Notes: generated by a model not told the origin, from the letters alone. A DNA stretch of 64,000 nt from a virus (IMGVR_UViG_3300019888_000209); one strand, 5' to 3'; positions 7,087 through 39,210 are shown, counted from the stretch's first letter. Numbers and translations are program-made.

Positions 7087-9033
7087 ATGGGAAACGCAGG
7101 CGGGATTATCTCACGGGGCGAATCTGTCACGCGCCAGCGTAATGAGGATATGAACCGACACGACCCGATCGCGCCGCACAGCGACGCGGCTACAGGAAAG
7201 GCACAAGGCCAGCGACTTGATGGTGATAATCTCCAATCGGTGCTCGATTCAGGCGCGAACGCCTGGCGCGTTGGCCGGCAACAGTTTTTCACGCCGCACG
7301 AGCTTGGCCGCACGCTGATGTTGCCGTTACCAGCGGCGCGCGAAAGCTTCGTCGATTTGACCATGGGCGCGGGCGCGTTGCTGAGCGCCAGCGGCGCAGC
7401 CAATCTTTACGGAATTGATATCGATTCACGTCTCGCCCGGAAGCCCACTTCTAATAATCTGGAAGCCACGAACCCAGGAAAAAAATCAAATTCATGGCCT
7501 CTCTCCACGGCGAGCCTTCGGCCTGGTTTCCAGATTCAAAATCAAAAATGGCACACGGTGTGCGCTGATCTTACGAGGTTTTATCCGTTGCTGCAGGAGA
7601 TTGATTGGCGCTTCGATCTCTGCGGGTTGAACCCGCCGTTTAGCGTGCGCTGGCATAAGCCGAACCTTGTCGCCCTCATCGATTCGGAGCTTGATACGGT
7701 GCGGCAAACATTCGGGCGCGGGAAGAAACCGACGATCGATTCCGTGTTGGCAACGTTTCTGATCGCGCTCGATCGCATGACCGATCGCGGCGAAGGTTTC
7801 CTGATTTGCACGGCCGCCGCAGCGCAAAAGATCGCAGCCACGCCGGTCGGCAAACACATCTGGCTATGGGTGACTGTCAAAGAAAAATCAGCCACGTCCG
7901 CCAGTCGGACGGACTCGTCCCGTGGCGAGGATGAACACGGATTTTCATTCGACGTGGCAGTGATTTACTTCGCGCGCGCGCATCGCGGACCGGAACCGTT
8001 TCGCCTATCCGTTGAATCTTCTCCTGGATTCCTGGCTTCCAGATTGACTCAATCTCTGGCTCCGATCGCGCGGCAGCGCGCTTTATTGCGCAAAGGTTTG
8101 TCGATCTTTTACCCCGACCATTTTTGCCCGCTTACACGCGAGCTTTGGGATGCGGCGAAGGAGGAATGGCTGCGCGTCAATCGCACAGAGGTTCCCGGCG
8201 ATTACAACATCTGGCTGAGAAAAGACGGGACGATCTGGCGGCACTTGACTCCGTTCCAAACTTGGAGCGGCAAAATCCCGCGCGCCAAAGCGGACTTGTT
8301 GAACCGGCTCGCCGGCCAAACGCCAATGTCGTTGGTAGTGCAAAAGGCAACGCGGCTGGCCTTGCTGGCCGCGATCGGAAAAAATAATCTGGAATCCAAG
8401 AATCCAGGAATTATTTCCGGGAAAAAGGGCTCCTGGTTTCCAGATTCAATTAAATCTTCCCCGTGGCGCGTTGACCCCGATCTTACAGCGGCCGTCGAAA
8501 ACGCGCTCGCCGAATATCACGCGCAACGCGCGCCGTTTTATCCGCTCAACGAAGTGCAACGCCTCGGATATCTGGACGAGGAAGACATGATCAAGTGCAA
8601 ACTCGAAGGTCTAACCGGATTCAAGCCTGGCAAAACCTACCCGCTCAGCTCGGAAACAATCGACGTGGAGCGCCAGGACGAGCGCCTGAATTTACTCGGC
8701 AACATCGAAGAGATAACGCTACAGGGAAAAGAACTCGCCTTTTACATCGAGGACGAGCGCGGCGACAAACACGCTTTCCTGCCCGCCGAAGCCCCCTGCT
8801 CCGCACTGCGTAGCTTCAGCAGCGCGCGTGAAGGAGATTACCACCACGATTTGCACGCGCTCATCCGGTATTTCGAAATTCCAGAAGTGGCGGACGTGGC
8901 GCAGATCGACCCCGACCGATACAATAATTTCGTGAACCAGATCCGCGCAATCGAGTCGGCAGTTAACAACAGAATTTCTCACCACGAAGGACACGAAAGC
9001 CACGAAGCTAAAACAGCAGTAGCCTCTTTCTGA
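7087..9033 (+). CDS. N6-adenine DNA methyltransferase (gamma-class motif order) carrying three in-frame family-A repeat insertions
   Basis: QQFFTP (motif X-like) at aa 65-70, Gly-rich TMGAGALL, then GLNPPFS (motif IV, NPPF) at aa 180-186. In-frame repeat insertions at 7456-7538, 8019-8045 and 8386-8446. C-terminus HHEGHESHEAKT is encoded by CACGAAG heptamers. Confidence 0.7.
   Translation: MGNAGGIISRGESVTRQRNEDMNRHDPIAPHSDAATGKAQGQRLDGDNLQSVLDSGANAWRVGRQQFFTPHELGRTLMLPLPAARESFVDLTMGAGALLSASGAANLYGIDIDSRLARKPTSNNLEATNPGKKSNSWPLSTASLRPGFQIQNQKWHTVCADLTRFYPLLQEIDWRFDLCGLNPPFSVRWHKPNLVALIDSELDTVRQTFGRGKKPTIDSVLATFLIALDRMTDRGEGFLICTAAAAQKIAATPVGKHIWLWVTVKEKSATSASRTDSSRGEDEHGFSFDVAVIYFARAHRGPEPFRLSVESSPGFLASRLTQSLAPIARQRALLRKGLSIFYPDHFCPLTRELWDAAKEEWLRVNRTEVPGDYNIWLRKDGTIWRHLTPFQTWSGKIPRAKADLLNRLAGQTPMSLVVQKATRLALLAAIGKNNLESKNPGIISGKKGSWFPDSIKSSPWRVDPDLTAAVENALAEYHAQRAPFYPLNEVQRLGYLDEEDMIKCKLEGLTGFKPGKTYPLSSETIDVERQDERLNLLGNIEEITLQGKELAFYIEDERGDKHAFLPAEAPCSALRSFSSAREGDYHHDLHALIRYFEIPEVADVAQIDPDRYNNFVNQIRAIESAVNNRISHHEGHESHEAKTAVASF
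7456..7538. repeat. family-A inverted-repeat element (CTGGAAxCCAGGAA...TCCTGGTTTCCAGATT), inside the methyltransferase
   Basis: aatctggaagccacgaacccaggaa...cctggtttccagatt; subtype with internal CTCTCCACGGCGAG. Confidence 0.85.
8019..8045. repeat. family-A half element, inside the methyltransferase
   Basis: ctcctggattcctggcttccagatt. Confidence 0.8.
8386..8446. repeat. family-A element, inside the methyltransferase
   Basis: aatctggaatccaagaatccaggaa...ctcctggtttccagatt. Confidence 0.85.
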
Positions 9034-9081
9034 ATCCGTGTTTCATAAGTTTACCCGCCGTGGCGGGTGTCAATCCGTGGC
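9033..9081. terminator. family-B hairpin (GTTTACCCGCCGTGGCGGGTG) between convergent genes; likely bidirectional terminator
   Basis: Perfect palindrome ACCCGCCGTGGCGGGT immediately after the methyltransferase stop and before the convergent gene 9196-9540. Confidence 0.4.
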
Positions 9082-9195
9082 CAAAATTCCAAAAAAGTGG
9101 CCGCGCCAGCTTGCGCCAACGCGGCCTGATCACCCGGCGCTCTGAGAGCGAAGGATAAACACCAATGACTACCCTAGGTGACGGAGATATGCCAG

Positions 9196-9540
9196 TCAAC
9201 GCGAGTCGTGATCGTCGTAGTCCGTAATTTTGCCGTTGACTTCGTAGCTTCCCCGGCTCAGCGATCTCATTTCGCGCCTATCTTTTGCAGTAGGTGTCCA
9301 ATCGGGTCCGTAGATATTTTGCATCATCGTCGTGAGAGCCTCCTCGTTCTTTGCGATTTCGGATCTTGCTTCCCCTGGATTTGAAGCTTCGCGCGAGTAA
9401 ATGTGGTCAACTATTGGGTCTGTCGGCGCCGGCGGCGTATTCACATGGGTCGTCCACGCAAGCACACAGACGGCAACTGCCACGATGACGAGGTAAATCT
9501 TTAGTAAGCGCGGAATATCTTTTATTTTTTTCATTTGCAT
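9196..9540 (-). CDS. small membrane-anchored protein
   Basis: N-terminal hydrophobic helix LLKIYLVIVAVAVCVLAW. Confidence 0.4.
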   Translation of the reverse strand: MQMKKIKDIPRLLKIYLVIVAVAVCVLAWTTHVNTPPAPTDPIVDHIYSREASNPGEARSEIAKNEEALTTMMQNIYGPDWTPTAKDRREMRSLSRGSYEVNGKITDYDDHDSR

Positions 9541-9607
9541 CTATACGAAACTTTCGTATGGTTGGGGTTAAATAATTGCCGGACCGACGTTACCGCCGAA
9601 TCCGGCA

Positions 9608-9868
9608 GTGAACAAAAACCCAACACCGTTAAATGAAAGGAATTCGTTCTTATGCAAAATACCATTGATTATGAAACTAGCAAAGCAAATCCAGTCGGCG
9701 CGAAAGGCGTTAAGGCTCAGCCAGTCCGAAGCCGCCACCATGTGGCAGATCAATCTGCGCACGCTTCAACATTGGGAGCAGGGAAGATCAGAACCCAAGG
9801 GGCTGGCGCGGATAAAACTGCAAGAAATCATACGGCAATCGAAAAAATCTTCTGGCCGGAAAGAGTGA
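9608..9868 (+). CDS. XRE-family HTH transcriptional regulator
   Basis: LRLSQSEAATMWQINLRTLQHWEQGRSEP is a typical XRE HTH pattern; its TGA stop overlaps the GTG of the next gene (GTGA). Confidence 0.6.
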   Translation: MNKNPTPLNERNSFLCKIPLIMKLAKQIQSARKALRLSQSEAATMWQINLRTLQHWEQGRSEPKGLARIKLQEIIRQSKKSSGRKE

Positions 9869-12516
9869 TCTGGGAGTCGCGCATCGGCGTCCGCAGCCAG
9901 AGTCTACGACAGGGCGGCGATACGGCATTTCGGTCGTTTCGCGCGGTTAAATTTCCCTCGCGCGTCAAGAACAGACAAATGAACGCGACAATGGAATCGC
10001 TTGAAATCGGCGCGAGTGAAGCGGCACGACCGACGCCGGCTACAAAGACGATGCCAGCGTTGCGGTTTCGCGCCTTTCAGGTCGACGACCTTGCCCGCGC
10101 GGCAATGTATGATGGGCTAATTCTTGGGTGGGATCCAGGCTTGGGCAAAAGTTTCGCCGCCTACATTTGGCCGCAACTAAAAGGTGCGCACAGGACCCTG
10201 ATCGTCGCGCCCGAACAATTGCACGAGCAGCTCCGGATCGAAGCTGGTCGCTTCTCAATTAAGTTACAGCCGTTGATGACGCACGAGGACTTCTACAATG
10301 ACGAACTCCTTCGCGCCGTGGCCTTGGAATACTCTCAATATTCAACCATCAGCTCTCAACTTTCTGGCTGGTGGCTGACGAGTTACAGCGCGCTTGGCTA
10401 CAACGGTGGAGATGAATGGAGTCCAAAGGAAAAGGAAAACGGCGAGATCATCCTTAATAGGACCATCGTTGGCAGGCGACAGACACACCCGATCTATCGC
10501 GAGGAATTTGATTTTGGAATTGGAGAAGAAAAATCCATCTGGAACCCAGGCCGAAGGCTCGCCGTGGAGAGAAACCAGGAAGAAGAAAAGGGACAAGGGG
10601 TTCCTGGGTTCTTGGCTTCCAGATTAGATCACTCTGTCAGGTGTGTGTTTACACCCACGCTGGCATTACTCGTTGCGGATCTCTTCGACTGCGTCGTATG
10701 CGATGAGGCCGTGAGAATAAAAACTGGCCAGACTTACTGTTCGCTGGGCGTACGGATGCTCACACCAAAATATCGCCTAATTCTTACGGCGACTCCAATC
10801 AAAAACACATTGCCAGATATCTTCTGGCTGGCGCAATGGGCTTGCGGTGGCCATTTAGGCGCCACGGCGCGCTGGCCATACGCCAACGCTTCCGACGCTA
10901 AGGAAACTTTCAGCACTGAACACCTTTTGATCGAACGCAATCACACCAAGGAAGCGGAACACCAGCAGCGGACCGGCCGTCACAAATCATTCAAGAAACG
11001 GACACCGAAGATTTGCAATATCCATCGGCTTTGGAAGCTGCTCGGACCGGTCGTGCTACGCCGGCGCAAAGACGACACCGGCGAAGAGATCGTGCCGAAG
11101 ACAATCATCCCGATTCGGGTGCGGCCAGGCACGGCGCAACAGGTCGTTTACCGGTTTCACCTGGATAATCCGCCGAAGATCGCCAAGAACGGCAAGCCGA
11201 TGGAAAAAATGGCGTCCATCGTGTCGCAGCTACAAAACTTGCGGCAAGCGGCGCTGTGCCCCGACTCCACGAACCTGAGCGAAATCGGATTGTCCATGCA
11301 CGGCCTTCGCGAGTTAATCAAGAAAGCTAAACATAATCCGGAAGCCGACCTTGCGTTGACGCACAAAGCGGTCCTGGTGGCGGTCAAAGGTGAACGCACG
11401 CCGTTTGAAGGGGAAAAGCAAGTGGCGTTGGCAATCCTCGAGCGATGGTCCCGCCTCGAAGGCGGGAGCAAAATCGATGTCGCCAAGATCATCGAAGCCG
11501 CGCCGACACTCGAAGAACATCTACGGCCGTTCATTGTCGATCTGGACGCGCGGAAGCACGCGCGAAGCTGGACCGATCACAACCCGAAACAGGCGGCCAT
11601 ACTCAAATTGATTGAAGAACTGATTTCGAAAGGCGAACAAGTCGTCGTCGTCTCGCCGTTCCAGCACTTTTCGCAGACGCTTTACCGGCGTCTCATGGAA
11701 GCCAACGTCAGCACGTGTTTACTCGACGGCAACGTGTCGCCCGACAAACGCGGCAAGCTGGCAAAACAATTCAAACAGAAACGGTTTGCCGTGCTCGTTG
11801 GCGGAATTAAATCGATGGGCGAAGGTTTTTCCTTCGAGTGCGCCAGCAATCTCATTTTGCCGTCGATCGAGTGGGCGTTTGATAACAACAAACAATCGAT
11901 CGATCGCGTGCACCGCTTGATCTCCGAAAAACCGGTCACGATTTACACGATGGTAACGATCAACACCATCGACGAACGATTGGAAGGCGTGTTTCGCGAC
12001 AAGGGCGACAGTTCAAACCTCGCGCTGGACGGCCGCTTGTTCGCAGACAAGACCGACGAAATCAATCTCGGGAAACTTTTGGCCGATGCCATTCGCGACT
12101 TCAATCCGGCTGCCGAAACCATTCCGGAGAAGGATATCGAAACGGAATGGGAAGGCACGTTACGCCAGAAACTGCGCATGGCAGAGCAACGTTTCCGCGA
12201 ATTTTGGCCGCCGATCGTACCGGACATTGCCGGCGCGAAACTTTCGGCTGCCGAAGTGCGCCGCGCCATGGAGAAACTTTCGTCCCGCGATGGCGGGACC
12301 GGCGGCATCGCATCGATTATCAACTGCATCCCGAGCGCGACCATCGGCGCGTTGACCGGCACCGCGGACCGCGAGAAAATCGAAAAGGCCCGGCGCGCGT
12401 TCACAGAATTTTGCATCGCGAAAAACATCAGCGATTGGAAGCAAGGCTGGCGCGCCTGGGAAGCCACCGGCGGGGTGGAGAAGTTGCCCGCGAATCACGC
12501 GAATAGACGCGAATAA
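9865..12516 (+). CDS. SNF2/RAD54-family helicase with one in-frame family-A repeat insertion
   Basis: Motif I DPGLGKS, motif Ia TLIVAP, motif II VVCDEAVRIK (DEAx), motif III LTATPIKN, C-terminal helicase domain VVVVSPFQ...SIDRVHRL. GTG start at 9865 coupled to the upstream HTH gene. Insertion at 10535-10626. Confidence 0.75.
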   Translation: MIWESRIGVRSQSLRQGGDTAFRSFRAVKFPSRVKNRQMNATMESLEIGASEAARPTPATKTMPALRFRAFQVDDLARAAMYDGLILGWDPGLGKSFAAYIWPQLKGAHRTLIVAPEQLHEQLRIEAGRFSIKLQPLMTHEDFYNDELLRAVALEYSQYSTISSQLSGWWLTSYSALGYNGGDEWSPKEKENGEIILNRTIVGRRQTHPIYREEFDFGIGEEKSIWNPGRRLAVERNQEEEKGQGVPGFLASRLDHSVRCVFTPTLALLVADLFDCVVCDEAVRIKTGQTYCSLGVRMLTPKYRLILTATPIKNTLPDIFWLAQWACGGHLGATARWPYANASDAKETFSTEHLLIERNHTKEAEHQQRTGRHKSFKKRTPKICNIHRLWKLLGPVVLRRRKDDTGEEIVPKTIIPIRVRPGTAQQVVYRFHLDNPPKIAKNGKPMEKMASIVSQLQNLRQAALCPDSTNLSEIGLSMHGLRELIKKAKHNPEADLALTHKAVLVAVKGERTPFEGEKQVALAILERWSRLEGGSKIDVAKIIEAAPTLEEHLRPFIVDLDARKHARSWTDHNPKQAAILKLIEELISKGEQVVVVSPFQHFSQTLYRRLMEANVSTCLLDGNVSPDKRGKLAKQFKQKRFAVLVGGIKSMGEGFSFECASNLILPSIEWAFDNNKQSIDRVHRLISEKPVTIYTMVTINTIDERLEGVFRDKGDSSNLALDGRLFADKTDEINLGKLLADAIRDFNPAAETIPEKDIETEWEGTLRQKLRMAEQRFREFWPPIVPDIAGAKLSAAEVRRAMEKLSSRDGGTGGIASIINCIPSATIGALTGTADREKIEKARRAFTEFCIAKNISDWKQGWRAWEATGGVEKLPANHANRRE
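10535..10626. repeat. family-A element, inside the SNF2 helicase
   Basis: atctggaacccagg...ggctcgccgtggagag...ttcctgggttcttggcttccagatt. Confidence 0.85.
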
Positions 12517-12539
12517 AGAAACAGGGAAAATAACAAAAA

Positions 12540-12692
12540 ATGAAAAGAAATAAACCAACTAAAGCTGGCGAGCGGACGCAAGAGCAATACCCGGAAGCGG
12601 AGCAAGTGGCAAACCTGCTTAACGTTATTAAGCAACACGAAGACCAATACGTTCTTGGCAAAATTGAAGACGGGAAGCTCACGCCGAATTGA
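12540..12692 (+). CDS. small hypothetical protein (50 aa), paralogous N-terminus to 3927-4211
   Basis: MKRNKPTKAGERTQ...; shares AAGCTGGCGAGCGGACGCA with 3947-3965; below the ORF-track length cut-off. Confidence 0.25.
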   Translation: MKRNKPTKAGERTQEQYPEAEQVANLLNVIKQHEDQYVLGKIEDGKLTPN

Positions 12693-12747
12693 AGGAACGC
12701 CGTGCGACGCGCCCGGAATGGTATTACACTTCGTGAGGAACCAGCCT

Positions 12748-12885
12748 ATGCTCGAACTCACCAAAGGAAATATTCTCGAAGCGGACACCGAAGCGCTCGT
12801 CAATACGGTCAACACTGAGGGCGTAATGTATGAGGCTTACCGAAGAGCGTGCGAGGCCGCACCCAGCCGTGTAGTCCGTGGCTAA
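12748..12885 (+). pseudogene. macro-domain (DarG-like) N-terminal remnant
   Basis: MLELTKGNILEADTEALVNTVNTEGVM matches the macro-domain N-terminal block (GNIL...EALVNTVN..GVMG) but the frame terminates about 35 aa in. Confidence 0.35.
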
Positions 12886-13027
12886 TTTTTTAAGAAAGAC
12901 AAATTTTGATTGACAAGCTCCAAGCGCTTGTTCCATATGTAACACTTTACTCCGTGAGATACAACCCGGGAACACAAACCACGCTCACGATGTTATCTCA
13001 CGGGGCCAAAAAACAGGATAAACACCA

Positions 13028-14065
13028 ATGCCACAGAAAAAACGAATCGAAGATATCGCCAAGGGACGCACTAATCTATTCTCGTTGCCCTGGCGAGATT
13101 GCGAGCCCGCGGTAATCGACGACGCCGGCCGTCCCGTAAAACTCAACACCCGCCAAGACTTCGGCAACATAGCCGAGTTTGCCGCGTCGCTGGCGGACGC
13201 AATCAGAGAGCCCGTTCTCGGATACATGGGCGAGAACGGGAAATTCCAGATCACCAACGGCGAGCGTCGCTGGCGCGGCGTCCAATGGCTGGAAAAGCAC
13301 AAGAGCGTAAAAGTTTTACTGCCGTGCGTGCGCGAAAGCCAGGGATATACCGACACCGATCGCAACGTCGACTTGCTCCGGACCAACAACGGCAAGCCGC
13401 TGGAAATGATCGAGCAAGCCGAAGCCATGATCCGCCTTCGCCAAGGCTACGGCGGACAGGCCAGCATGAGTGAGAAAGAGATCGCGCACAAAGCCGGTTG
13501 CTCGCCAACGCACGTGGCGAATTGCCTGGCGCTCCTGAACGACGCCGCGCCGGAAGTGCAAGAGGCAGTGCGCAAGGGCGAAATGACCGGCACGTTGGCA
13601 GTCGATCTCGCGCGCAGCGTGCCCAACAAAGAAAGACAAACAGAGATTTTGGAAAAAGGACGGGAGAAAGCGTTGGAGACGGCGCGCCCTCGCGCCGTAC
13701 GTGGCGAGGGCGCCACGTCTCCAACCAAGAAAACAAAGGTGACCGCGAAACATCTGTCGGTCGCCACCGGAAAGAAAGCGCAGTCGGCCAAGAAGGCGGC
13801 CAAGAAGCAGCACGACACCGACGCGCAGTTTTGGGACCAGAGCCAAGGCAAATTCGTCATCAAGTCGCCCCAGCGCTCCGTAAAGTCGAACAAGGCAGGT
13901 GGAAAATCTGCCGGGCTGGCGATGCTCGAGGAGCTTCTCGACGCCGTGGAGCGCAAAGATTGCGAGGACAAGGCGCGTTACGACACGCTCGAATTTCTCT
14001 ACGACTACAGTGCCGGCCGCCAGAACATGGCGAACGCCACAAAATTCATTTTGGGAATGATCTAA
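13028..14065 (+). CDS. parB: ParB-like partition/nuclease-domain protein with HTH and Lys-rich tail
   Basis: ITNGERRWRG (ParB GERRxRA box), central HTH EIAHKAGCSPTHVANCLALL, K-rich C-terminal segment. Preceded by GGATAAACACCAATG. Confidence 0.7.
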   Translation: MPQKKRIEDIAKGRTNLFSLPWRDCEPAVIDDAGRPVKLNTRQDFGNIAEFAASLADAIREPVLGYMGENGKFQITNGERRWRGVQWLEKHKSVKVLLPCVRESQGYTDTDRNVDLLRTNNGKPLEMIEQAEAMIRLRQGYGGQASMSEKEIAHKAGCSPTHVANCLALLNDAAPEVQEAVRKGEMTGTLAVDLARSVPNKERQTEILEKGREKALETARPRAVRGEGATSPTKKTKVTAKHLSVATGKKAQSAKKAAKKQHDTDAQFWDQSQGKFVIKSPQRSVKSNKAGGKSAGLAMLEELLDAVERKDCEDKARYDTLEFLYDYSAGRQNMANATKFILGMI

Positions 14066-14094
14066 CCACGAATGGACACAAATTTACACGAATG

Positions 14095-14121
14095 AATTCC
14101 TGGGTTTCCTGGTTTCCAGAT
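14095..14121. repeat. family-A half element, intergenic (parB to recombinase)
   Basis: ttcctgggtttcctggtttccagatt. Confidence 0.8.
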
Positions 14122-14168
14122 TATGACGACGAACACATCCTGCGAATGTCCGCAGTCGATTTTTAACT

Positions 14169-14987
14169 ATGAGCGAACGAATCCAGAAACCAACCGAGCA
14201 CGATTGCCCGGCTAAAGTTGTCGGCTACGTGCGCGGCTCCACCGACGAGCAGTTGAACACGCTCGAAGCGCAAGAGAATCAGATCCGCGCGTATTGCGCC
14301 TATAAAAATCTTGACCTGGTGAAGGTCTATATCGAATCGGGCGAATCCGGCAGCGTGAGTTTTTACGAGCGGCCGGTAGCAGCTCAAATGCTGCAAGAGA
14401 TTGGAACGAATCTGGAATCCAGGAAACCAGGAATTTCCTTTCGGGAAGACGGGCTCCTGGCTTCTAGATTAAATAATTCTGCGATTTCCGGCATCGTAAT
14501 CACCAAACTCGACCGCGGTTTCCGTAACGCGCTCGATTGCCTGTTTACTTTGGAGAATCTCACGGCGCGCGGAATCGGGTTGCACTTGCTGGATATTCAG
14601 CTCGACCCCGATACGCCGGTGGGAAAATTACTTCTGACCATGCTCGCCGCGATCGCGGAGTTTGAAAACAAACGGCGCAGCGAACGCCAGGTAGCCGCGT
14701 TCGCCGTGATGAAATCCAAAGGCCAGCGATGCGGGACCATTCCCTACGGCTATCAACTCTCAACTATCAACTCTCAACTTGTCGAAGACCCAGAAGAAAT
14801 GAGGGTTCTTCGACAAATCATTCACTGGATTGAAGTCGAGCACATGGCCGTTTCAAAAATCGCGCGGTTGCTCAACGAAGCCGGCACGCCCACCAAACAA
14901 GGCGGCAAGAAATGGTTCCCGGGGACCGTAAGTAGCGTTTACAAACATCGAAGAATTTCGGATATCGAAAACCGGAAAGCAGCATGA
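14169..14987 (+). CDS. serine recombinase (resolvase/invertase family) with in-frame family-A repeat insertion
   Basis: VGYVRGSTDEQ (catalytic Ser block), ITKLDRGFRN, EFENKRRSERQ. Repeat insertion TNLESRKPGISFREDGLLASRLNNSA at 14409-14470. C-terminus GTIPYGYQL recombinase-like. Confidence 0.75.
   Translation: MSERIQKPTEHDCPAKVVGYVRGSTDEQLNTLEAQENQIRAYCAYKNLDLVKVYIESGESGSVSFYERPVAAQMLQEIGTNLESRKPGISFREDGLLASRLNNSAISGIVITKLDRGFRNALDCLFTLENLTARGIGLHLLDIQLDPDTPVGKLLLTMLAAIAEFENKRRSERQVAAFAVMKSKGQRCGTIPYGYQLSTINSQLVEDPEEMRVLRQIIHWIEVEHMAVSKIARLLNEAGTPTKQGGKKWFPGTVSSVYKHRRISDIENRKAA
14409..14470. repeat. family-A element, inside the serine recombinase
   Basis: aatctggaatccaggaaaccaggaa...ctcctggcttctagatt. 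Confidence 0.85.
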
Positions 14988-15116: not shown

Positions 15117-15434
15117 ATGAAGACGAAGTTATACCGGCAAGGCGATGTGCTGATTGAGCAGGTCGCTAAGTTGCCGAAAAACCTAAAAAGGCAGGCAGGT
15201 GAGAATGGCCGGATCATTCTGGCTCGTGGTGAAGCGACTGGCCATCATCATTCGGTGAATATCGATGCTGCTGATTGGTGGAAATCAGATAGCGGCGAGC
15301 AATTTCTCACAGTCGAGAAACAAGCTGAAGTCACTCACCAGGAACATGACGCGCTGGTCTTGCTACCCGGGAATTACCGGGTGCGTCGACAGCGGGAATA
15401 CACACCAGAAGCGATCCGCAATGTCGCAGACTAA
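15117..15434 (+). CDS. hypothetical small protein
   Basis: MKTKLYRQGDVLIEQV...; composition suggests a beta-rich fold; no named motif. Confidence 0.4.
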   Translation: MKTKLYRQGDVLIEQVAKLPKNLKRQAGENGRIILARGEATGHHHSVNIDAADWWKSDSGEQFLTVEKQAEVTHQEHDALVLLPGNYRVRRQREYTPEAIRNVAD

Positions 15435-16479
15435 AGTAATAGAGAAACTGACGGCCGAGCAGGAGCTCGACCTTTCCGAGACCTATCGGCATGGGGTCGC
15501 AATCGGTCGATCATCGCTGCCGCTCGACCGACCGGCAGTGGCGACTATTATCCGCGAATTGTACGCCAGGATAGGAGAAGCGCCGCCCGTGTTGCTTTTC
15601 TTCACGTCGCCACTGCTCTGTATCTTGGCCTATGGAATTTTGTCCAAGATAGGGTCGCAATTGGGGTCGCAATTGGGGTCGCAATTGGGGTCGCAATTGG
15701 GGTCGCAATTGGAGTCGCAATTGAGGTCGCAATTGGGGTCGCAATTGGAGTCGCAATTGGGGTCGCAATTGGGGTCGCAATTGGGGTCGCAATTGGGGTC
15801 GCAATTGAGGTCGCAATTGAGGTCGCAATTGAGGTCGCAATTGAGGAACTATTTTGCAGGCAATCAGTGGTGTGCCTGGCAAGTGTTTTACGATTTTTGC
15901 CGGAGAATCGGTGTCCGATTTTCCGGCGAGCAAAATGAGCTATTGGATCTGTGGCTTGAGGAGGGGCGCCAATGTCATTGGTGGTGGTCGTATAAAGGCA
16001 TTGTCCTTGCCTCAGAACGACACACCTCGCTCAACTTGGACGATCGTGGCCGATTGCATTCAGTAACAGGACCAGCGCTTTCCTACGCAGATGGATGGAG
16101 TGTTTATGCGGTCCATGGCGTAAGAATCGAAGCAGAGCTCATCGAACATCCGGAGAAAATCACGGTTAAGAAAATCGAGAACGAAACTAATGCTGAGATT
16201 CGCCGGGTAAAAATCGAGCTTTATGGTCAGCAGCGTTATCTGTTGGATTCCGGAGCGAAAGAGATCCATACCGACGATTATGGGACGCTTTACCGAAAGG
16301 ATTTATCTGGCGATGAGCCAATCGTGATGGTGAAAGTGGTTAATTCCACGCCAGAACCAGATGGAACATTCAGGGATTATTTTCTTCGCGTCCCGCCGGG
16401 AATTACGAAAGCGCGCGAGGCCGTGGCATGGACATTTGATATTGAGTCGAATGCCTATGCCTTGGCTAAACAGACATGA
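15421..16479 (+). CDS. (GSQL)n tandem-repeat protein with conserved C-terminal domain
   Basis: ATG at 15421 overlaps the previous stop. N-terminal domain, then about 16 copies of GSQL/ESQL/RSQL encoded by a 12-bp tandem repeat, then a Trp-rich C-terminal domain (CHWWWSYKGIVLASERH...). Confidence 0.5.
   Translation: MSQTKVIEKLTAEQELDLSETYRHGVAIGRSSLPLDRPAVATIIRELYARIGEAPPVLLFFTSPLLCILAYGILSKIGSQLGSQLGSQLGSQLGSQLESQLRSQLGSQLESQLGSQLGSQLGSQLGSQLRSQLRSQLRSQLRNYFAGNQWCAWQVFYDFCRRIGVRFSGEQNELLDLWLEEGRQCHWWWSYKGIVLASERHTSLNLDDRGRLHSVTGPALSYADGWSVYAVHGVRIEAELIEHPEKITVKKIENETNAEIRRVKIELYGQQRYLLDSGAKEIHTDDYGTLYRKDLSGDEPIVMVKVVNSTPEPDGTFRDYFLRVPPGITKAREAVAWTFDIESNAYALAKQT
15652..15846. repeat. 12-bp tandem repeat (GGGTCGCAATTG)n, about 16 units with G/A and G/T variants
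   Basis: Read directly: gggtcgcaattg, gagtcgcaattg, gaggtcgcaattg units. Confidence 0.9.
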
Positions 16480-16961
16480 TGATGAGCGCGCTCAATATCA
16501 GGATCGTTCGGCCGCAAACGCGCGTAAGTTTGTTCGGTTACCCGTGGATCGTCGCCAAGCCATATCGCGATCTTGTAAAGACTCACGCCGTTGCTGGCGA
16601 GCAAACTGGCGAAAGTATGGCGCATCAGGTGCGGCGTGAGCTTGGTCTGGCCGATCATTTGCAGTTCCTGGTTTTTCGCGTGTTCGAGGAACGGCCGCGT
16701 GAAATCGTAGCGGTAACGGTTTGCGCCGTGTTTCACTTCCGGCCGGAGCATGTAAGGCTCGCGCAATCCGTAGCCTTTCAGAAAAGTTTGGAACCGTCGC
16801 GTAAGCGGGATGGTGCGTTCCTCGCGGTCCTTGAACTTGATTGTCGGAGTCCCGCGCAAGTGCAACAGGCCCGCGGGCAGATCGAACCACCAGGGCCGCG
16901 CCTCAATGATCTCGTTCTTGCGCAGACCGGCGTGAAATCCGCAGTAGAGCACAAACGTCAA
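16455..16961 (-). CDS. tyrosine recombinase (integrase) catalytic domain only; N-terminal core-binding domain absent
   Basis: AGLRKNEI (box I Arg), LTPHLMRHTFASLLASNGVSLYKIAIWLGD...TEQTYARL (HxxR, catalytic Tyr). Only 168 aa; an in-frame stop lies just upstream. Confidence 0.55.
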   Translation of the reverse strand: MTFVLYCGFHAGLRKNEIIEARPWWFDLPAGLLHLRGTPTIKFKDREERTIPLTRRFQTFLKGYGLREPYMLRPEVKHGANRYRYDFTRPFLEHAKNQELQMIGQTKLTPHLMRHTFASLLASNGVSLYKIAIWLGDDPRVTEQTYARLRPNDPDIERAHHHVCLAKA

Positions 16962-17092
16962 GTCTTCGCGTGTGCACCTTTTAATGAGTCGATCGCATTG
17001 CGCTTCCGAGCAGAAGTCTTTGAACCGCCGGCCTCGGAAATCCGTGGCGACAAGATCAAACTGCGAAGGATGAAACGGCGGGCAGGCCGACT

Positions 17093-18073
17093 ATGAGCGC
17101 GAACAGCACCATCGAGTGGACCGATCACACATGGAACCCATGGGAAGGGTGCACCAAGAAATCGCCCGGGTGCAAGAATTGCTACGCCGAAGCGCGCAAC
17201 AAACGGTTCGCCGGCGCGAATTGGGGAAAGGGCAAGCCCAGGCGGCGCACCAGAGAAGCGAACTGGCGGATGCCGCTGCGATGGAATCTGGAAACCAGGA
17301 AAACAGGAAAACGATTTAAGATTTTTTTGTCGCTATGCGACTGGCTGGACGAAGAAGTGCCGATCGAATGGCTGTCTGATTTCCTGGCCTTGATCTATGC
17401 GACGCCGAATCTCATCTGGCAATTGCTCACCAAATCGCCGGAGAATTGGCGCACGCGGCTTACGGAAACTTTGCACGTGCTCGTCCGCCAAGAAAATTTT
17501 ACCGCGGCGGTCGAGGTTCGGGCCTGGCTGCAACAGGAACCGCCGCTTGCACCGCAAAACGTCTGGCTGGGCGTGAGCGTGGAGGATCAGGAGCGCGCGG
17601 ATGAACGCATGCCGGTGCTGTTAAACATTCCGGCGAAACTGCACTTTCTTAGCTGCGAGCCCCTGCTCGAGCCCATCGACCTAGAAAACTATTTGCCCTG
17701 TAGCCGTCGCCCTGTGGGCGACGCGCGCGCTTCGCACAGCGAAGCGGCTACAGTCGATTGGGTAATCGCCGGCGGCGAATCCGGTCCTGGTGCGCGGCCG
17801 TGTGATATCCAGTGGATTCGCGAAATCATCGCGCAATGCGAGCTGGCCAAGGTGCCGGTGTTCGTGAAGCAGCTTGGCGCGTTTCCGTTTGATTTTGACG
17901 GGCGAGAAGAGGTTTGGTTGAAGACGCTGCCTCCGCAATACCGCGACGGAACGCGATACGCGATCGCCGAGCGTCGAATCAAAGACCGCAAAGGCGGCGA
18001 CCCAGCAGAATGGCCGGAAGACTTGCGCATCAGGCAATTCCCATCCGTGAAATCCGTGGTTGTTCCAAAATGA
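17093..18073 (+). CDS. phage Gp37/Gp68-family protein (DUF5131-like) with in-frame family-A and family-E insertions
   Basis: N-terminus IEWTDHTWNPWEGCTKKSPGCKNCYA, later WLGVSVEDQ, SCEPLLEPI, DWVIAGGESGP. Insertions WNLETRKTGKRFKIF (17285-17312) and CSRRPVGDARASHSEAAT (17699-17752). Confidence 0.7.
   Translation: MSANSTIEWTDHTWNPWEGCTKKSPGCKNCYAEARNKRFAGANWGKGKPRRRTREANWRMPLRWNLETRKTGKRFKIFLSLCDWLDEEVPIEWLSDFLALIYATPNLIWQLLTKSPENWRTRLTETLHVLVRQENFTAAVEVRAWLQQEPPLAPQNVWLGVSVEDQERADERMPVLLNIPAKLHFLSCEPLLEPIDLENYLPCSRRPVGDARASHSEAATVDWVIAGGESGPGARPCDIQWIREIIAQCELAKVPVFVKQLGAFPFDFDGREEVWLKTLPPQYRDGTRYAIAERRIKDRKGGDPAEWPEDLRIRQFPSVKSVVVPK
17285..17312. repeat. family-A half element, inside Gp37/Gp68
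   Basis: aatctggaaaccaggaaaacaggaaaac. Confidence 0.8.
17699..17752. repeat. family-E nested palindrome (GTAGCCGTCGCCC..GGGCGACG..CGCTTCGCACAGCGAAGCGGCTACAG), in frame in Gp37/Gp68
   Basis: Near-identical copy at 45935-46010; translated CSRRPVGDARASHSEAAT. Confidence 0.85.
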
Positions 18074-20225: not shown

Positions 20226-21140
20226 ATGAAAAACATATGTGAATTCAAAACACTTGCTGAATTTCTCGAATACTTCAAAGACGAGGAAACATGCCTCAGG
20301 CATTTCGCGGCAATCCGTTTCCGTAATGGCGAGTATTGCCCGCACTGCGGACATACCGAGATTTACACGTTCAGCGACGGTAAGCGTTATCGCTGCGCAA
20401 AGTGCAAACAGGATTTCACGATCAAGACGGGCACGGTGTTTGGGGAAAGCAAGTTGCCGCTCAAAAAATGGTTCATTGCCATTTATTTACTTTCCACGAC
20501 GAGCAAGGGGATTTCCTCGGTTCAACTCGCCAAGCACGTGGGCGTGACGCAAAAGACGGGATGGTTCATGGATCACCGGCTCCGCAAGGCGATGAAACAA
20601 AACAAGGGGCAATTGTTCGGCACGGTGGAAGCTGACGAGACATTCGTCGGCGGATTGGAGAAAAATAAACACAAGTCGAAGCGGCAGCACATCGGAACGG
20701 GCGGAACGGGCAAGACGCCAGTGTTTGCAATGAAGAGCCGTGACGGAGAACTCCGAGCGCGAGTCGTGCAAACTGTGCGCTCCGAAGAATTGCAACATCA
20801 CATTCGAGATACGGTTACTAATGGTGCGACGGTTTACACGGACAACTGGGTTGGTTACAGAGGATTGAAAGGCTACGTGCACACGGCCATCAATCATAGC
20901 AACGGTGATTATGTTCAGGGTGATGCCCACACCAACAGCATAGAGAGCTTTTGGGCGCTCTTTAAGCGCGGCTATCATGGTGTTTACCACCAGATGAGCC
21001 GGAAGCATTTGCAGCGTTACGTTGACGAATTCACTTTTCGTTTCAATCGACGCAAGGTCGAAATGCAGGACATGTTCTCCGACATGGTTGAGAACGTCAC
21101 TGAGAGCAAGAAGCTGCCGTACAAGGAACTCATCGCATGA
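20226..21140 (+). CDS. IS1595-family (ISXO2-like) transposase
   Basis: N-terminal zinc ribbon CPHCGH...CAKC, then VEADETFVGG, GKTPVF, INHSNGDYV..HTNSIESFWALFKRGYHGVYH..KHLQRYVDEFTFRFNRR. Confidence 0.8.
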   Translation: MKNICEFKTLAEFLEYFKDEETCLRHFAAIRFRNGEYCPHCGHTEIYTFSDGKRYRCAKCKQDFTIKTGTVFGESKLPLKKWFIAIYLLSTTSKGISSVQLAKHVGVTQKTGWFMDHRLRKAMKQNKGQLFGTVEADETFVGGLEKNKHKSKRQHIGTGGTGKTPVFAMKSRDGELRARVVQTVRSEELQHHIRDTVTNGATVYTDNWVGYRGLKGYVHTAINHSNGDYVQGDAHTNSIESFWALFKRGYHGVYHQMSRKHLQRYVDEFTFRFNRRKVEMQDMFSDMVENVTESKKLPYKELIA

Positions 21141-22018: not shown

Positions 22019-23071
22019 ATGCGGGAGTGGATTTCAGACCTTATCCAATTCCTCAAATCAGTCATTCTTCGATGGTTCAACGTTTTCGCCGGAGCGTTCG
22101 TTACAACGGTATGGACGATTTACCAACAAATCACCGGGAGGCCGCTCCCGATGACAGCTTTTTGGTCGCTAGTTGGGGTTTGCATTTCGATTGCTGTGTT
22201 TCAGGCGTGGCGTGAAGAACACAAAAAAGCCCTGGCGCGGGTTGGGCTAATTGGCCGCATTCTTTCTACCGTGTATTTCGAGGGCACGGATGGGCGTGTC
22301 GGAATTGTCGTAAAGCTTCAAATAACTAACAGAGGCGAGCCAACTGTAGTCGATGGGTGGGGGATGACTTTCGACTTAAATGGTTTCAATGCGTTACCAG
22401 CCACGCATCCCTTAGACGGAAAGATCGACATCAATGATAACAAGGGTAAGGTCGTTAGACTTAAGTCGTCAGACCTACTGCACGAGAAAGTCGGCATTCA
22501 CCAGATAGCTAAAGGAGGGCGAGTTTCAGGGTTTCTTGTCTTTCTAACCAAGGGCATTTCTTACGAACGACTGGCCTCCGCGCGCCCGAATGTCACTGTT
22601 CTTTTCCGTGACGCTTTCGGACAGGAATATACGGCTATGAACCAAGGTACCGGTATAGCCGCGCCGATGCATGAACCTGGGATCGACGACCCATTTGCGC
22701 ATATTTTAATCAGGCAAGCCAAGGAAGCAAAAGAGGGTCAAAAGCTCCTGTACTCAGTTGTCGAGAAGATAAGCCACGGTAGCCGTCCAATAATGGCGTT
22801 AATCGAGTTAGGCGTCGCTGACGAGTTAGACACGAACGAGGATGTCCTGAATTTGTGCCGCCAATTAGTTACAGATGGACATGGAGACCCATTCGAGCAC
22901 CTTGGGAACAGGTATCCGCCTCCAGTGAGGCAGGAATTTTTGAAGGAGGCTCGGCGCAAAAATTTGAAGTTCCCGAACGCAATATCGGAGGTGGAATTTG
23001 TGTACGACGGATTAAGGAAAGACCTCGCGCTAGCGAAAGAGAGAATGGAGGCGCAAAAAGCAGAGGATTAG
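22019..23071 (+). CDS. membrane protein with two N-terminal TM helices and a large soluble domain; function unknown
   Basis: TM segments FAGAFVTTVWTIY and AFWSLVGVCISIAVF; the C-terminus overlaps the end of the second transposase gene. Confidence 0.45.
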   Translation: MREWISDLIQFLKSVILRWFNVFAGAFVTTVWTIYQQITGRPLPMTAFWSLVGVCISIAVFQAWREEHKKALARVGLIGRILSTVYFEGTDGRVGIVVKLQITNRGEPTVVDGWGMTFDLNGFNALPATHPLDGKIDINDNKGKVVRLKSSDLLHEKVGIHQIAKGGRVSGFLVFLTKGISYERLASARPNVTVLFRDAFGQEYTAMNQGTGIAAPMHEPGIDDPFAHILIRQAKEAKEGQKLLYSVVEKISHGSRPIMALIELGVADELDTNEDVLNLCRQLVTDGHGDPFEHLGNRYPPPVRQEFLKEARRKNLKFPNAISEVEFVYDGLRKDLALAKERMEAQKAED

Positions 23072-26894: not shown

Positions 26895-26973
26895 AATCTG
26901 GAAACCAAGAACCCAGGAAGGTTTCTGAATTCTGCAATTCTACGTTTTTTCCTGGTTTCCTGGCTTCTAGATT
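26895..26973. repeat. family-A element, intergenic (tail protein to tape-measure gene)
   Basis: aatctggaaaccaagaacccaggaa...cctggtttcctggcttctagatt. Confidence 0.85.
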
Positions 26974-31243: not shown

Positions 31244-31314
31244 ATCTAGAAACCAGGAAACCAAGAAAAAAGAAAAAAGGGACGGCGGGCTCCTGGCTTC
31301 GTGGCTTCCAGATT
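31244..31314. repeat. family-A element, immediately upstream of the tape-measure start
   Basis: atctagaaaccaggaaaccaag...ctcctggcttcgtggcttccagatt. Confidence 0.85.
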
Positions 31315-37230: not shown

Positions 37231-37304
37231 AATCTAGAAGCCAGGAAGCCAGGAATTTCCGGACTTAAAAAAGATTCTTTTTCCTGGATTCCTGGGTTCC
37301 AGAT
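37231..37304. repeat. family-A element, intergenic
   Basis: aatctagaagccaggaagccaggaa...tcctggattcctgggttccagatt. Confidence 0.85.
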
Positions 37305-38710: not shown

Positions 38711-39181
38711 TTACGCTGGCACCTCCCCTTCCTGGGCCATTGTCTCGGCGTCGAACGTCAGGTTTTGATTCGGCGTCGTGACCTTTTGGCCGCGCAACGT
38801 TACCGCCCCGTACGTGCGTTTCGCCCTCAACCCGGTGTCTTCATCCGTCCATTCGATTACCATCGTGTATGGCAGGTCCGGATCGATATCCGGAACACCG
38901 GGCGGATTAGTGCTCGCGTCAATGAGATACAGATTCCCGATTTCAATTACGTGGCTCTCGCCTATCTTTTTCTTCTTGGCCTGCGCTACGCCTGGGATTT
39001 CAACGTCGCGTCGCGGATATTCGTCGGTGCAGACGATGTTGTCCGCGCATCCGCCTATCCAGATTTGCGCGCCTGGGTGAGCCGGGTCATAGAACGAAAT
39101 GTCGGCCTCCAGGATCGTTAGCGGTATCCCGTTCATCGATTGAATCTGGAAGCCAGGAAACCATGAAATTTCTGAGCACAA
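38711..39181 (-). CDS. hypothetical structural protein
   Basis: ORF only. Confidence 0.35.
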   Translation of the reverse strand: MCSEISWFPGFQIQSMNGIPLTILEADISFYDPAHPGAQIWIGGCADNIVCTDEYPRRDVEIPGVAQAKKKKIGESHVIEIGNLYLIDASTNPPGVPDIDPDLPYTMVIEWTDEDTGLRAKRTYGAVTLRGQKVTTPNQNLTFDAETMAQEGEVPA

Positions 39182-39210
39182 ACCCTTCCTGGATTCCTGG
39201 TTTCCAGATT
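39142..39210. repeat. family-A element, intergenic
   Basis: aatctggaagccaggaaaccatg...tcctggattcctggtttccagatt. Confidence 0.85.

What the first reader, a model, noticed from the sequence alone, without database searches (positions are those of the whole stretch)
7087..14987. DNA-modification and maintenance island: N6-adenine methyltransferase, XRE HTH, SNF2 helicase, ParB-like protein and serine resolvase
A separate adenine methyltransferase and a large SNF2 helicase sit side by side. The HTH gene is translationally coupled to the helicase through a GTGA stop/start overlap at 9865-9868. They are followed by a ParB-like protein with no ParA partner and a resolvase-type serine recombinase.
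The pairing of methyltransferase and helicase recalls the fused methyltransferase-helicase antirestriction protein DarB of phage P1 and the methyltransferase/SNF2 modules of DISARM class 1. ParB plus a resolvase suggests a plasmid-like (phage-plasmid) lifestyle or a defence/antidefence island.
The combination as arranged here does not match a named system that I recognise.
Basis: partly seen in the sequence, partly recalled or inferred. Interest (0 to 1): 0.7.

Follow-up and report, generated by a model that had tools for sequence, protein, structure and literature searches.

The report
Split methylase–helicase pair in a prophage
This stretch is part of the early-gene operon of a prophage from a soil bacterium, probably a Verrucomicrobiota member. 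Its adenine DNA methyltransferase and SNF2 motor protein are two halves of one conserved unit that is a single fused protein in many relatives, which makes it an uncharacterised variant of a known phage and plasmid theme rather than a new defence island.

Summary
All five genes are present and intact. The 648-aa protein has no Pfam or NCBIfam hit. Its predicted structure and invariant motifs (FFTP, DLxxGxG, GIDID, NPPF) mark it as a gamma-class N6-adenine DNA methyltransferase with a 350-aa C-terminal module that matches no solved structure.

The methyltransferase and the SNF2 ATPase form one functional unit. SNF2 lies downstream on the same strand in 21 of 24 informative related loci. 17 of 120 SNF2 homologues are end-to-end methyltransferase–SNF2 fusions.

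In the window the unit is split by an inserted cassette: a minus-strand membrane-protein gene with its own terminator, plus the HTH gene. The GTGA overlap exists, but homologues favour an SNF2 start at ATG 9979–10051, so translational coupling is doubtful.

The order methyltransferase/SNF2, then orphan ParB, then small serine recombinase is conserved in four related elements.

DISARM, BREX and Hma partners are absent. P1 DarB shares the architecture but no detectable sequence similarity. The element is integrated next to copper-resistance genes and carries a tape-measure gene and a primase-helicase, so a phage-plasmid reading is not supported.

Best fit is the "DNA methylase–helicase dyad" of Iyer et al. 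2017, in a new family.

Side observation: a REP/MITE-like palindrome sits in frame inside three of these genes.

The parts
7087..9033 (+). Gamma-class N6-adenine DNA methyltransferase-like protein (648 aa ORF; probable start 7150). The methyltransferase core spans about aa 45-300. A conserved 350-aa C-terminal module of unknown fold follows.
9099..9126 (-). Terminator-like hairpin (12 bp stem, 9 G-C pairs, T-run) downstream of the minus-strand gene.
9196..9540 (-). 114-aa protein with an N-terminal hydrophobic helix and no family hit. It is part of the cassette inserted between the methyltransferase and SNF2 genes.
   Evidence: ORF. Called by the public gene caller. No Pfam hit. Only one sub-threshold PHROG hit, E 0.0084.
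9543..9559 (.). 17-nt palindrome ATACGAAAcTTTCGTAT in the divergent region, 3 nt upstream of the minus-strand start codon. It is a possible operator for the HTH protein (inference only).
   Evidence: Read from the sequence.
9608..9868 (+). XRE-type HTH protein (probable start ATG 9671, about 65 aa).
   Evidence: HTH_3 and phrog_2104. A 64%-identical orthologue lies between the methyltransferase and SNF2 genes in L029.
9979..12516 (+). SNF2-family ATPase/translocase with GLGKS, DEAV, LTATPIKN and QSIDRVHR motifs. Start candidates are 9979, 9991 or 10051; GTG 9865 is less likely.
12748..12885 (+). Remnant of a macro-domain (DarG-like) gene. Only the first 27 residues of the domain survive.
   Evidence: PADLOC DarG 1.5e-9 and NCBIfam DarG 9.8e-8 over residues 32-58. 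No continuation in any frame.
13028..14065 (+). Orphan ParB/Noc-type protein: N-terminal domain with GERRWR, then a ParB HTH, then a divergent C-terminus.
   Evidence: No ParA motif in the window.
13672..13725 (.). 54-bp imperfect palindrome inside parB. It is unique in the window and a candidate ParB site at low confidence.
   Evidence: L029 has an unrelated 22-bp perfect palindrome at a similar relative position in its parB; L026 and L027 have none.
14169..14987 (+). Small serine recombinase (272 aa). It has the catalytic domain with YVRGSTDEQ and the first half of the 'Recombinase' domain. It lacks the zinc ribbon and coiled coil.
   Evidence: Orthologues of 246 and 269 aa in L027 and L029; a 247-aa Resolvase-domain gene sits at the same position on the P0005 contig.
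7456..7536 (.). REP/MITE-like palindromic element lying in frame inside the methyltransferase gene (aa 124-150).
8386..8446 (.). Second in-frame palindromic element in the methyltransferase gene (aa 434-454). It is absent from all six close homologues.
10536..10625 (.). In-frame palindromic element in the SNF2 gene, in a variable loop.
14409..14470 (.). In-frame palindromic element in the serine recombinase gene (aa 81-101).

Best explanation
Region 7.1-15 kb is the middle of the rightward early operon of a temperate tailed phage. The phage is integrated in a larger replicon of a soil bacterium, probably a Verrucomicrobiota member.

**Core unit.** The core is a two-subunit version of a methyltransferase-SNF2 enzyme.
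- One subunit is a gamma-class N6-adenine DNA methyltransferase carrying a family-specific 350-aa C-terminal module.
- The other subunit is an SNF2 double-strand-DNA translocase.
- In many relatives the methyltransferase C-terminus runs directly into the SNF2 N-terminus.
- Here the gene has been split by a small cassette: an HTH regulator plus a divergently transcribed membrane protein with its own terminator.

**Inferred mechanism.**
- The SNF2 motor tracks along phage DNA and carries the methyltransferase. The phage genome is then adenine-methylated quickly and broadly after induction or entry.
- This would protect it from host restriction, in a DarB-like or 'methylase-helicase dyad' manner.
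- The element has its own primase-helicase upstream, so SNF2 is not the replicative helicase.

**Downstream genes.** The orphan ParB and the small serine recombinase are conserved neighbours within this phage lineage.
- ParB most likely acts as a site-specific DNA clamp or regulator.
- The recombinase most likely acts in integration/excision or multimer resolution.
- Neither appears to be a subunit of the methyltransferase-helicase machine.

**Shown:** gene identities, the fold, the fusion/split relationship, synteny and integration.
**Inferred:** DNA as the substrate, processivity, the anti-restriction role, and the roles of ParB and the recombinase.
For: - Methyltransferase fold and catalytic motifs.
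- SNF2 motifs and profile hits.
- SNF2 lies downstream on the same strand in 21 of 24 informative loci, with gaps from -58 to 8189 nt.
- P0100 is a colinear fusion: methyltransferase at aa 2-569 (42% identity) and SNF2 at aa 556-1348 (54% identity).
- 17 of 120 SNF2 homologues carry the full methyltransferase module at the N-terminus.
- 35 of the top 150 family representatives are at least 1100 aa long.
- The inserts between the two halves vary. L029 holds a minus-strand gene, an HTH_3 gene and an HNH/AP2 gene. The P0005 contig holds three small genes.
- The synteny methyltransferase/SNF2, then ParB, then small serine recombinase holds in the window, the P0005 contig, L027 and L029.
- Phage context: a tape measure protein, Gp80 and PIN_10, DUF5131, and an upstream 1235-aa protein with DUF3854 and DUF927 hits, read here as a primase-helicase.
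- Host genes flank the window on the right.
- The literature describes SWI2/SNF2 ATPases coupled to EcoKI/TaqI-like adenine methyltransferases, fused or as neighbours, in phages and plasmids, with an anti-restriction rationale (PMC5512222).
Against: - There is no experimental evidence for methylation, substrate or anti-restriction activity.
- There is no detectable sequence relationship to P1 DarB.
- darB in P1 sits beside the portal gene, and DarB is packaged in the virion. This pair instead sits in an early operon far from the structural genes, so a virion-injected mode is unlikely.
- JGI labels some homologues 'predicted RNA methylase'. Some RNA methyltransferases appear lower in the structural hit list.
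- The C-terminal module has no structural analogue, so how a target is chosen is unknown.
- The close, conserved linkage with ParB and the recombinase could mean a larger functional unit than proposed here.
Confidence: 0.55

Rival explanations
1. The pair is a prophage-carried defence module: a restriction-like or DISARM/BREX-related/Hma-like system. The methyltransferase marks self DNA. The SNF2 protein senses or attacks unmodified incoming DNA and so excludes competing phages.
For: - The SNF2 protein hits the PADLOC models ZorD (1e-26), DpdE, DrmD (3e-9), BrxH and HmaA (4e-6). The methyltransferase weakly hits MADS mad2 (6e-5).
- N6-methyltransferase plus Swi2/Snf2 cores occur in BREX-related systems (PMC12839542).
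- Prophages often carry defence genes (general knowledge).
Against: - The hits cover only generic helicase lobes.
- No nuclease, PLD, DUF1998, PglZ or ATPase partner was found in the window's other large ORFs or in the SNF2 C-terminal tail, which has no Pfam hit.
- The genes sit inside the conserved early operon of a phage lineage, not in a variable island.
- A fused methyltransferase-SNF2 without a nuclease is the architecture described for counter-restriction proteins of mobile elements.
Confidence: 0.15
2. The SNF2 protein and ParB are replication, recombination or genome-maintenance factors of an episomal phage-plasmid. ParB plus resolvase provide partition and multimer resolution. The methyltransferase is an unrelated stand-alone orphan enzyme.
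For: - PHROG labels the SNF2 family 'DNA helicase'.
- ParB and a serine recombinase are conserved downstream.
- One relative lies on a 43-kb contig that could be a complete episome.
Against: - The methyltransferase and SNF2 are fused in many relatives, so they are not independent.
- The element has its own primase-helicase.
- There is no ParA in the window and no LG(K/R)GL-type ParA-binding motif at the ParB N-terminus (sequence, motif definition from PMC12704722).
- This copy is embedded beside cellular genes.
- No repeated parS-like site was found, only one palindrome.
Confidence: 0.12
3. Methyltransferase-SNF2, ParB and the small serine recombinase form one conserved multi-gene system. One possibility is that ParB loads at a site and recruits the translocating methyltransferase, with the recombinase acting on the marked DNA to control lysogeny, excision or packaging.
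For: The same gene order holds in four elements whose methyltransferases are 42-54% identical.
Against: - In more distant loci the recombinase lies upstream, at variable distance.
- ParB is not detected within 10 kb in those loci.
- Variable small genes separate the components.
- Synteny within one phage lineage is expected from common descent alone.
Confidence: 0.1

Closest known systems
DNA methylase-helicase dyad of phage and plasmid 'polyvalent' proteins and their stand-alone or neighbouring versions (Iyer, Burroughs, Anand, de Souza, Aravind 2017, PMC5512222)
   Same: - An EcoKI/TaqI-like gamma-class adenine methyltransferase with an N-terminal helix capped by a TP motif, plus NPP(F/Y).
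- A SWI2/SNF2-clade ATPase on its C-terminal side.
- Found fused or as adjacent genes in mobile elements.
   Different: - No LPD36-like four-helix N-terminal domain is evident: residues 1-40 are disordered and only three short helices precede the core.
- A 350-aa conserved module lies between the methyltransferase and SNF2 and has no structural match.
- The protein is not part of a giant multidomain protein.
- The family is centred on Verrucomicrobiota (pro)phages.
Phage P1 DarB (2255 aa, anti-restriction against type I systems)
   Same: - Domain order: an N6-adenine methyltransferase followed by an SNF2-like helicase.
- The helicase motifs occur in the same order (ILGxxxGLGK, DE, LTATP).
   Different: - No significant sequence similarity: hhalign 8% probability, BLASTP E 0.2.
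- DarB is a virion component and darB sits next to the portal gene. This pair sits in an early operon with replication genes.
- It is split into two genes.
DISARM class 1 (DrmMI + DrmD + DrmA/B/C)
   Same: An N6-adenine methyltransferase and an SNF2 helicase lie in one locus.
   Different: - No DrmMI match.
- DrmD matches are weaker than ZorD or DpdE matches.
- DrmA, DrmB and DrmC are absent.
Orphan ParB-CTPase-fold proteins of mobile elements (PMC12704722)
   Same: - ParB N-terminal domain with the GERRxR P-motif plus a ParB HTH.
- No ParA partner and no ParA-binding motif.
- Encoded on a prophage.
   Different: - The ENLQR-type motif is replaced by RTNNG, so CTP hydrolysis is uncertain.
- The C-terminal 110 aa are unrelated to known dimerisation domains.
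Small serine recombinases (resolvase/invertase) and large serine integrases
   Same: - A catalytic domain with the YxRxSTxxQ serine motif.
- Similarity to SPbeta SprA/YokA that extends into the recombinase domain.
   Different: - At 272 aa it is longer than resolvases and lacks an HTH_7 hit.
- It is far shorter than large serine integrases and lacks the zinc ribbon and coiled coil.
- It carries a 21-aa insertion derived from a repeat element.

Membership tests
DNA methylase-helicase dyad (Iyer et al. 2017) | EcoKI/TaqI-like gamma-class N6-adenine methyltransferase with an N-terminal helix capped by a TP motif and an NPP(Y/F) active site | tested here: met
   QQFFTP and NPPF are conserved. Foldseek top hits are CamA, M.BseCI, PacII, HsdM and BpuSI. 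The profile hits EcoR124 HsdM at 2.3e-4.
DNA methylase-helicase dyad (Iyer et al. 2017) | SWI2/SNF2-clade ATPase fused to, or encoded next to, the C-terminal side of the methyltransferase | tested here: met
   SNF2-rel_dom and Helicase_C hits. Fusions P0100 and 16 others. Downstream on the same strand in 21 of 24 loci.
DNA methylase-helicase dyad (Iyer et al. 2017) | N-terminal LPD36 domain (four helices, GxGU motif) | tested here: inconclusive
   No LPD36 profile was available. In the model, residues 1-40 are disordered and only three short helices (46-77) precede the core.
P1 DarB family | Detectable sequence homology to DarB | tested here: not met
   hhalign 8% probability. BLASTP E 0.2. 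tblastn against 50,697 phage records gave no match.
P1 DarB family | Packaged in the virion and protects DNA in cis against type I restriction | not testable with these tools
   The gene lies in the early operon, away from the head genes. P1 darB is adjacent to the portal gene.
DISARM class 1 | DrmMI-type methyltransferase and DrmD SNF2 helicase | tested here: not met
   No DrmMI hit. DrmD at 3e-9 covers the C-lobe only and is weaker than ZorD at 1e-26.
DISARM class 1 | DrmA (helicase), DrmB (DUF1998) and DrmC (PLD) partners | tested here: not met
   No PADLOC hit in 10 other large ORFs of the element. No such Pfam domains were found in the genes that were called.
BREX / BREX-related / Hma | PglX/PglZ/BrxC, a nuclease-bearing Tudor-SNF2 helicase, or HmaB/HmaC partners | tested here: not met
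   Only weak BrxH (2e-6) and HmaA (4e-6) helicase-lobe hits, and no partners.
ParABS partition system | ParB with an N-terminal CTPase-fold domain and an HTH | tested here: met
   HTH_ParB 2e-9; TIGR00180 at 54.7 bits against a 58.45-bit cut-off; Noc and Spo0J structures aligned over aa 38-238; GERRWR present.
ParABS partition system | Adjacent ParA ATPase and a ParA-binding motif on ParB | tested here: not met
   No KGGxGK[ST] motif in the six frames of the 64-kb window. The N-terminus has no LG(K/R)GL motif (sequence; motif definition).
ParABS partition system | Repeated parS sites | tested here: inconclusive
   A single 54-bp palindrome lies inside parB and has no second copy. It is not conserved in relatives.
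Phage-plasmid | Episomal replicon not embedded in host DNA | tested here: not met
   The contig is 124,787 bp in ENA, and a 324,718-bp contig is on record. Copper-efflux and aldo-keto reductase genes lie immediately to the right of the window.
Large serine integrase | Resolvase catalytic domain plus a full recombinase domain, zinc ribbon and coiled coil (over 400 aa) | tested here: not met
   The protein is 272 aa. The Recombinase domain is matched only over profile positions 1-53 of 102. Orthologues are 246-269 aa.

The most novel reading that the evidence does not exclude
The methyltransferase, its structurally unmatched 350-aa module and the SNF2 motor, together with the orphan ParB and the unusually short serine recombinase, could form one conserved phage system. 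In it a ParB-type clamp would direct a translocating adenine methyltransferase, and perhaps the recombinase, to phage DNA. That would be an epigenetic marking and anti-defence or lysogeny-control machine not yet described. Its unique middle domain would define a new way of coupling a methyltransferase to a motor.
Probability: 0.1. Interest if true: 0.7.

Novelty: new variant of a known kind. Interest (0 to 1): 0.35.

Why it matters
**Why the family matters**
- Methyltransferase-SNF2 dyads are widespread in phages and plasmids. Even for P1 DarB it is not established how the motor and the methyltransferase cooperate.
- This family has about 400 clusters at 50% identity.
- It offers natural split and fused forms, and a compact two-protein version of 648 and about 845 aa.
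- It also has a well-predicted but structurally unmatched coupling module.
- These features make it a tractable model for testing whether translocation drives processive protective methylation.

**Annotation corrections**
- The public gene call for SNF2 and the longest-ORF starts for the methyltransferase and HTH genes are probably wrong.
- The methyltransferase escapes both Pfam and NCBIfam.

**Overall.** This is an ordinary phage early region, not a new defence island.

Tried and rejected
- **Cultured phages.** DNA and protein searches against 50,697 phage records gave no match for the region or the methyltransferase. SNF2 gave only generic Helicase_C hits.
- **IMG/VR.** The viral-contig scan found only five distant loci.
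- **P1 DarB.** Direct comparison showed no significant similarity.
- **Defence partners.** A PADLOC scan of 10 other large ORFs found nothing.
- **ParA.** A six-frame search for the ParA motif found nothing.
- **parS.** Only one palindrome was found, with no repeats, and it is not conserved in relatives.
- **Macro-domain fragment.** It could not be extended in any frame, so it is a remnant.
- **SNF2 start.** Both are disfavoured by the homologue N-termini and by the real HTH gene.
- **SNF2 as replicative helicase.** I rejected this because a DUF3854 plus DUF927 primase-helicase lies upstream.
- **Promoters.** The sigma-70 promoter scan was uninformative: 1 site against 4.7 expected.

Full report
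**1. What is in the sequence**

- Profile searches confirm an XRE-type HTH (HTH_3 6.7e-5; phrog_2104 5e-10).
- They confirm an SNF2 ATPase (SNF2-rel_dom 7.6e-16; Helicase_C 5e-11; phrog_62 'DNA helicase' 4e-45).
- They confirm a ParB (HTH_ParB 2e-9; PHROG ParB-like 4e-23; TIGR00180 1e-14).
- They confirm a serine recombinase (Resolvase 2.4e-28 plus the first half of the Recombinase domain).
- The 648-aa 'methyltransferase' has no Pfam or NCBIfam hit. Its only profile hits are a PHROG DNA methyltransferase at 2.9e-5 and PADLOC mad2 at 6e-5.

**2. The methyltransferase**

- A database search found 93 relatives. Nearly all are unnamed metagenomic proteins, and several come from Verrucomicrobiota MAGs.
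- An exhaustive profile search found 405 clusters at E<=1e-30 among 1.84 billion representatives.
- The alignment has invariant or near-invariant G94, G109, D111 and N182-P183-P184, plus a conserved QQFFTP helix. These correspond to motif X, motif I, motif II and motif IV (NPPF) of gamma-class amino-methyltransferases.
- An AlphaFold model built on 93 sequences has mean pLDDT 85.
- Its best Foldseek matches in the PDB are adenine DNA methyltransferases CamA, M.BseCI, PacII, type I HsdM subunits and BpuSI, at E about 1e-6.
- Homologues start at the residue matching M22, so the true start is probably 7150.

**3. The methyltransferase and SNF2 are one unit**

- In 24 related loci with enough downstream sequence, 22 carry the SNF2 gene. 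In 21 of these it lies downstream on the same strand, with gaps from -58 to 8189 nt.
- P0100 (1376 aa) aligns colinearly with both window proteins. Residues 2-569 match the methyltransferase at 42% identity. Residues 556-1348 match SNF2 at 54% identity. The methyltransferase C-terminus therefore runs straight into the SNF2 N-terminus.
- Seventeen of 120 SNF2 homologues carry the full methyltransferase module at their N-terminus. Thirty-five of the top 150 family representatives are at least 1100 aa long.
- The window is a split form. Between the halves lie a minus-strand 114-aa protein with an N-terminal hydrophobic helix (9196-9540), its strong terminator (9126-9099) and the HTH gene.
- A 17-nt palindrome (9543-9559) sits in the divergent region.
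- L029, a relative with 50-58% identical methyltransferase and SNF2, has a 64%-identical HTH at the same place. It also has a minus-strand gene and an HNH/AP2 homing-endonuclease-like gene.
- The P0005 contig has three different small genes at that position.
- The split site is therefore a variable insertion point. The HTH belongs to an inserted cassette rather than to the enzyme.

**4. Gene starts and the claimed coupling**

- GTGA is at 9865-9868.
- Seven unfused homologues begin 4-28 residues before the conserved FRFRAFQVDD motif. This corresponds to ATG 9979, 9991 or 10051 in the window.
- Nothing supports coding between 9868 and 9979.
- The public gene call (ATG 9652, 954 aa) overlaps the HTH gene, which has real homologues, in another frame.
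- Translational coupling of the HTH gene to SNF2 is therefore possible but not supported.

**5. Context**

- The window is a prophage. It has a tape measure protein at 26988-31235, Gp80 and PIN_10 genes in the leftward operon and DUF5131.
- Just upstream of the window lies a 1235-aa protein with DUF3854 and DUF927 hits, which I read as a primase-helicase. SNF2 is therefore not the replicative helicase.
- Immediately to the right of the window are a CsoR-type repressor, a copper P-type ATPase, an HMBD protein and an aldo-keto reductase. The ENA contig is 124,787 bp, and a 324,718-bp contig is also on record. This copy is therefore integrated, not an episome.
- Two IS1595 transposase genes, a truncated tyrosine recombinase, a macro-domain remnant and many host-type repeat elements suggest an old or decaying resident.

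**6. ParB and the recombinase**

- The ParB aligns with solved Noc, Spo0J and ParB structures over residues 38-238, spanning both the N-terminal and HTH domains, and keeps GERRWR.
- The ENLQR-type motif reads RTNNG in this protein (sequence). The N-terminus has no LG(K/R)GL ParA-binding motif, using the motif definition in PMC12704722.
- No ParA-type Walker motif occurs anywhere in the window.
- That paper reports that orphan ParBs lacking ParA are common on mobile elements and that about 1% of ParB homologues are prophage-encoded.
- A unique 54-bp palindrome lies inside parB (13672-13725). It is the only parS candidate and is not conserved in relatives.
- The recombinase has the catalytic YVRGSTDEQ motif. 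It resembles resolvases and the N-terminal half of the SPbeta large serine recombinase, but it stops after half of the recombinase domain.
- Short orthologues are conserved: 246 aa in L027 and 269 aa in L029, with a 247-aa Resolvase-domain gene at the same position on the P0005 contig. It is therefore a family, not a truncation.
- The order methyltransferase/SNF2, then ParB, then recombinase holds in four elements.
- In more distant loci the recombinase lies upstream and ParB is not detected. This fits shared descent within a phage lineage better than an obligate four-part system.

**7. Comparison with known systems**

- Iyer et al. 2017 (PMC5512222, section 14) describe the 'DNA methylase-helicase dyad'. 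It is an EcoKI/TaqI-like adenine methyltransferase with a TP-capped helix and NPP(Y/F), joined to a SWI2/SNF2-clade ATPase. [quoted passage not shown] P1 DarB is the archetype, and a translocation-coupled protective methylation model is proposed.
- The window pair meets the two architectural criteria.
- It shows no detectable sequence similarity to DarB.
- It shows no evident LPD36 domain.
- It has a unique module between the methyltransferase and SNF2.
- It lies in an early operon rather than beside head genes as darB does.
- DISARM, BREX, BREX-related and Hma memberships fail because their partners are absent and only generic helicase lobes match.

**8. Verdict**

- It is partly wrong on DISARM, on the phage-plasmid lifestyle and on HTH-SNF2 coupling.
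- The locus is a new, uncharacterised variant of a known kind.
- Interest is modest.
- The most useful outcomes are the split/fused relationship, the structurally unmatched coupling module, the corrected gene starts, and the side observation of in-frame palindromic repeat insertions.

Noticed in passing
window 7456-7536, 8012-8045, 8386-8446, 10536-10625, 14091-14122, 14409-14470; also 26896-26972, 31244-31313, 37232-37304, 39144-39209, 39703-39764, 47689-47755 and single arms at 17285, 31405, 34008, 36581, 45128, 57369: A REP/MITE-like palindromic element of 60-90 bp is scattered through the window.
- Its arms read ATCTGGAAnCCAGGAAnCCAGGAA ... TTCCTGGnTTCCTGGnTTCCAGAT.
- There are 32 arm matches against 0.3 expected by chance.
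- Intergenic copies fold into strong hairpins, z about -5.
- Degenerate copies lie in frame inside the methyltransferase (two or three copies), SNF2 and serine recombinase genes.
- These give window-specific loop insertions absent from close homologues (NLE..NPG.., PGFLASRL) that coincide with low-pLDDT loops.
- The arm occurs in more than 120 soil metagenome contigs. Sometimes two arms sit as inverted pairs about 430 bp apart.
- 19 of 67 full copies there lie within stop-free frames of at least 600 nt.
- The arm occurs in none of the 28 homologous loci held at that point.
- This is reminiscent of Rickettsia palindromic elements that insert in frame into genes (own knowledge).
   Followed up: partly
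window 16455-16961 (-): A 168-aa ORF encodes only the catalytic domain of a tyrosine recombinase (Phage_integrase 2.4e-8; XerD 7e-5). It lies antisense to the ORF chosen by the public gene call (16476-17096 +), which has no homologue. This is probably a truncated integrase gene that was mis-called on the wrong strand.
   Followed up: partly
window 12748-12885 (+): A remnant of a DarG-like macro-domain gene lies between SNF2 and parB. Only the first 27 residues of the domain (MLELTKGNILEADTEALVNTVNTEGVM) survive, and nothing continues in any frame.
   Followed up: yes
window 15652-15843: A perfect-looking 12-bp tandem repeat of 16 copies (96% matches) encodes (GSQL)n inside the DUF6745 protein gene at 15265-16479.
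   Followed up: no
window 20226-21140 (+) and 23068-23985 (-): Two IS1595-family transposase genes (DDE_Tnp_IS1595 9e-43 and 1e-35) lie in inverted orientation between the early and structural regions. They bracket about 2 kb of unannotated ORFs and may form a composite transposon.
   Followed up: no
SNF2 homologues P0130-P0212 (e.g. P0136); methyltransferase homologue P0045: A large subgroup of the same SNF2 family carries an N-terminal DnaJ (J-domain, PF00226) fusion instead of the methyltransferase. P0136 and methyltransferase homologue P0045 both have a longest contig of 44,506 bp on record and may lie on the same contig. This could indicate methyltransferase plus J-domain-SNF2 pairs that recruit host Hsp70.
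   Followed up: no
L027 3632-7312: The relative that carries the fused methyltransferase-SNF2 gene has a prokaryotic ubiquitin-like set (Prok_Ub, Prok-E2_D, ThiF) just upstream in the same operon.
   Followed up: no
P0006 (methyltransferase homologue): P0006 carries two copies of a different peptide insertion (…SLTD..GNLRKSAxSV…) in variable loops. This suggests that another repeat element has colonised the same gene family in frame in another genome.
   Followed up: no
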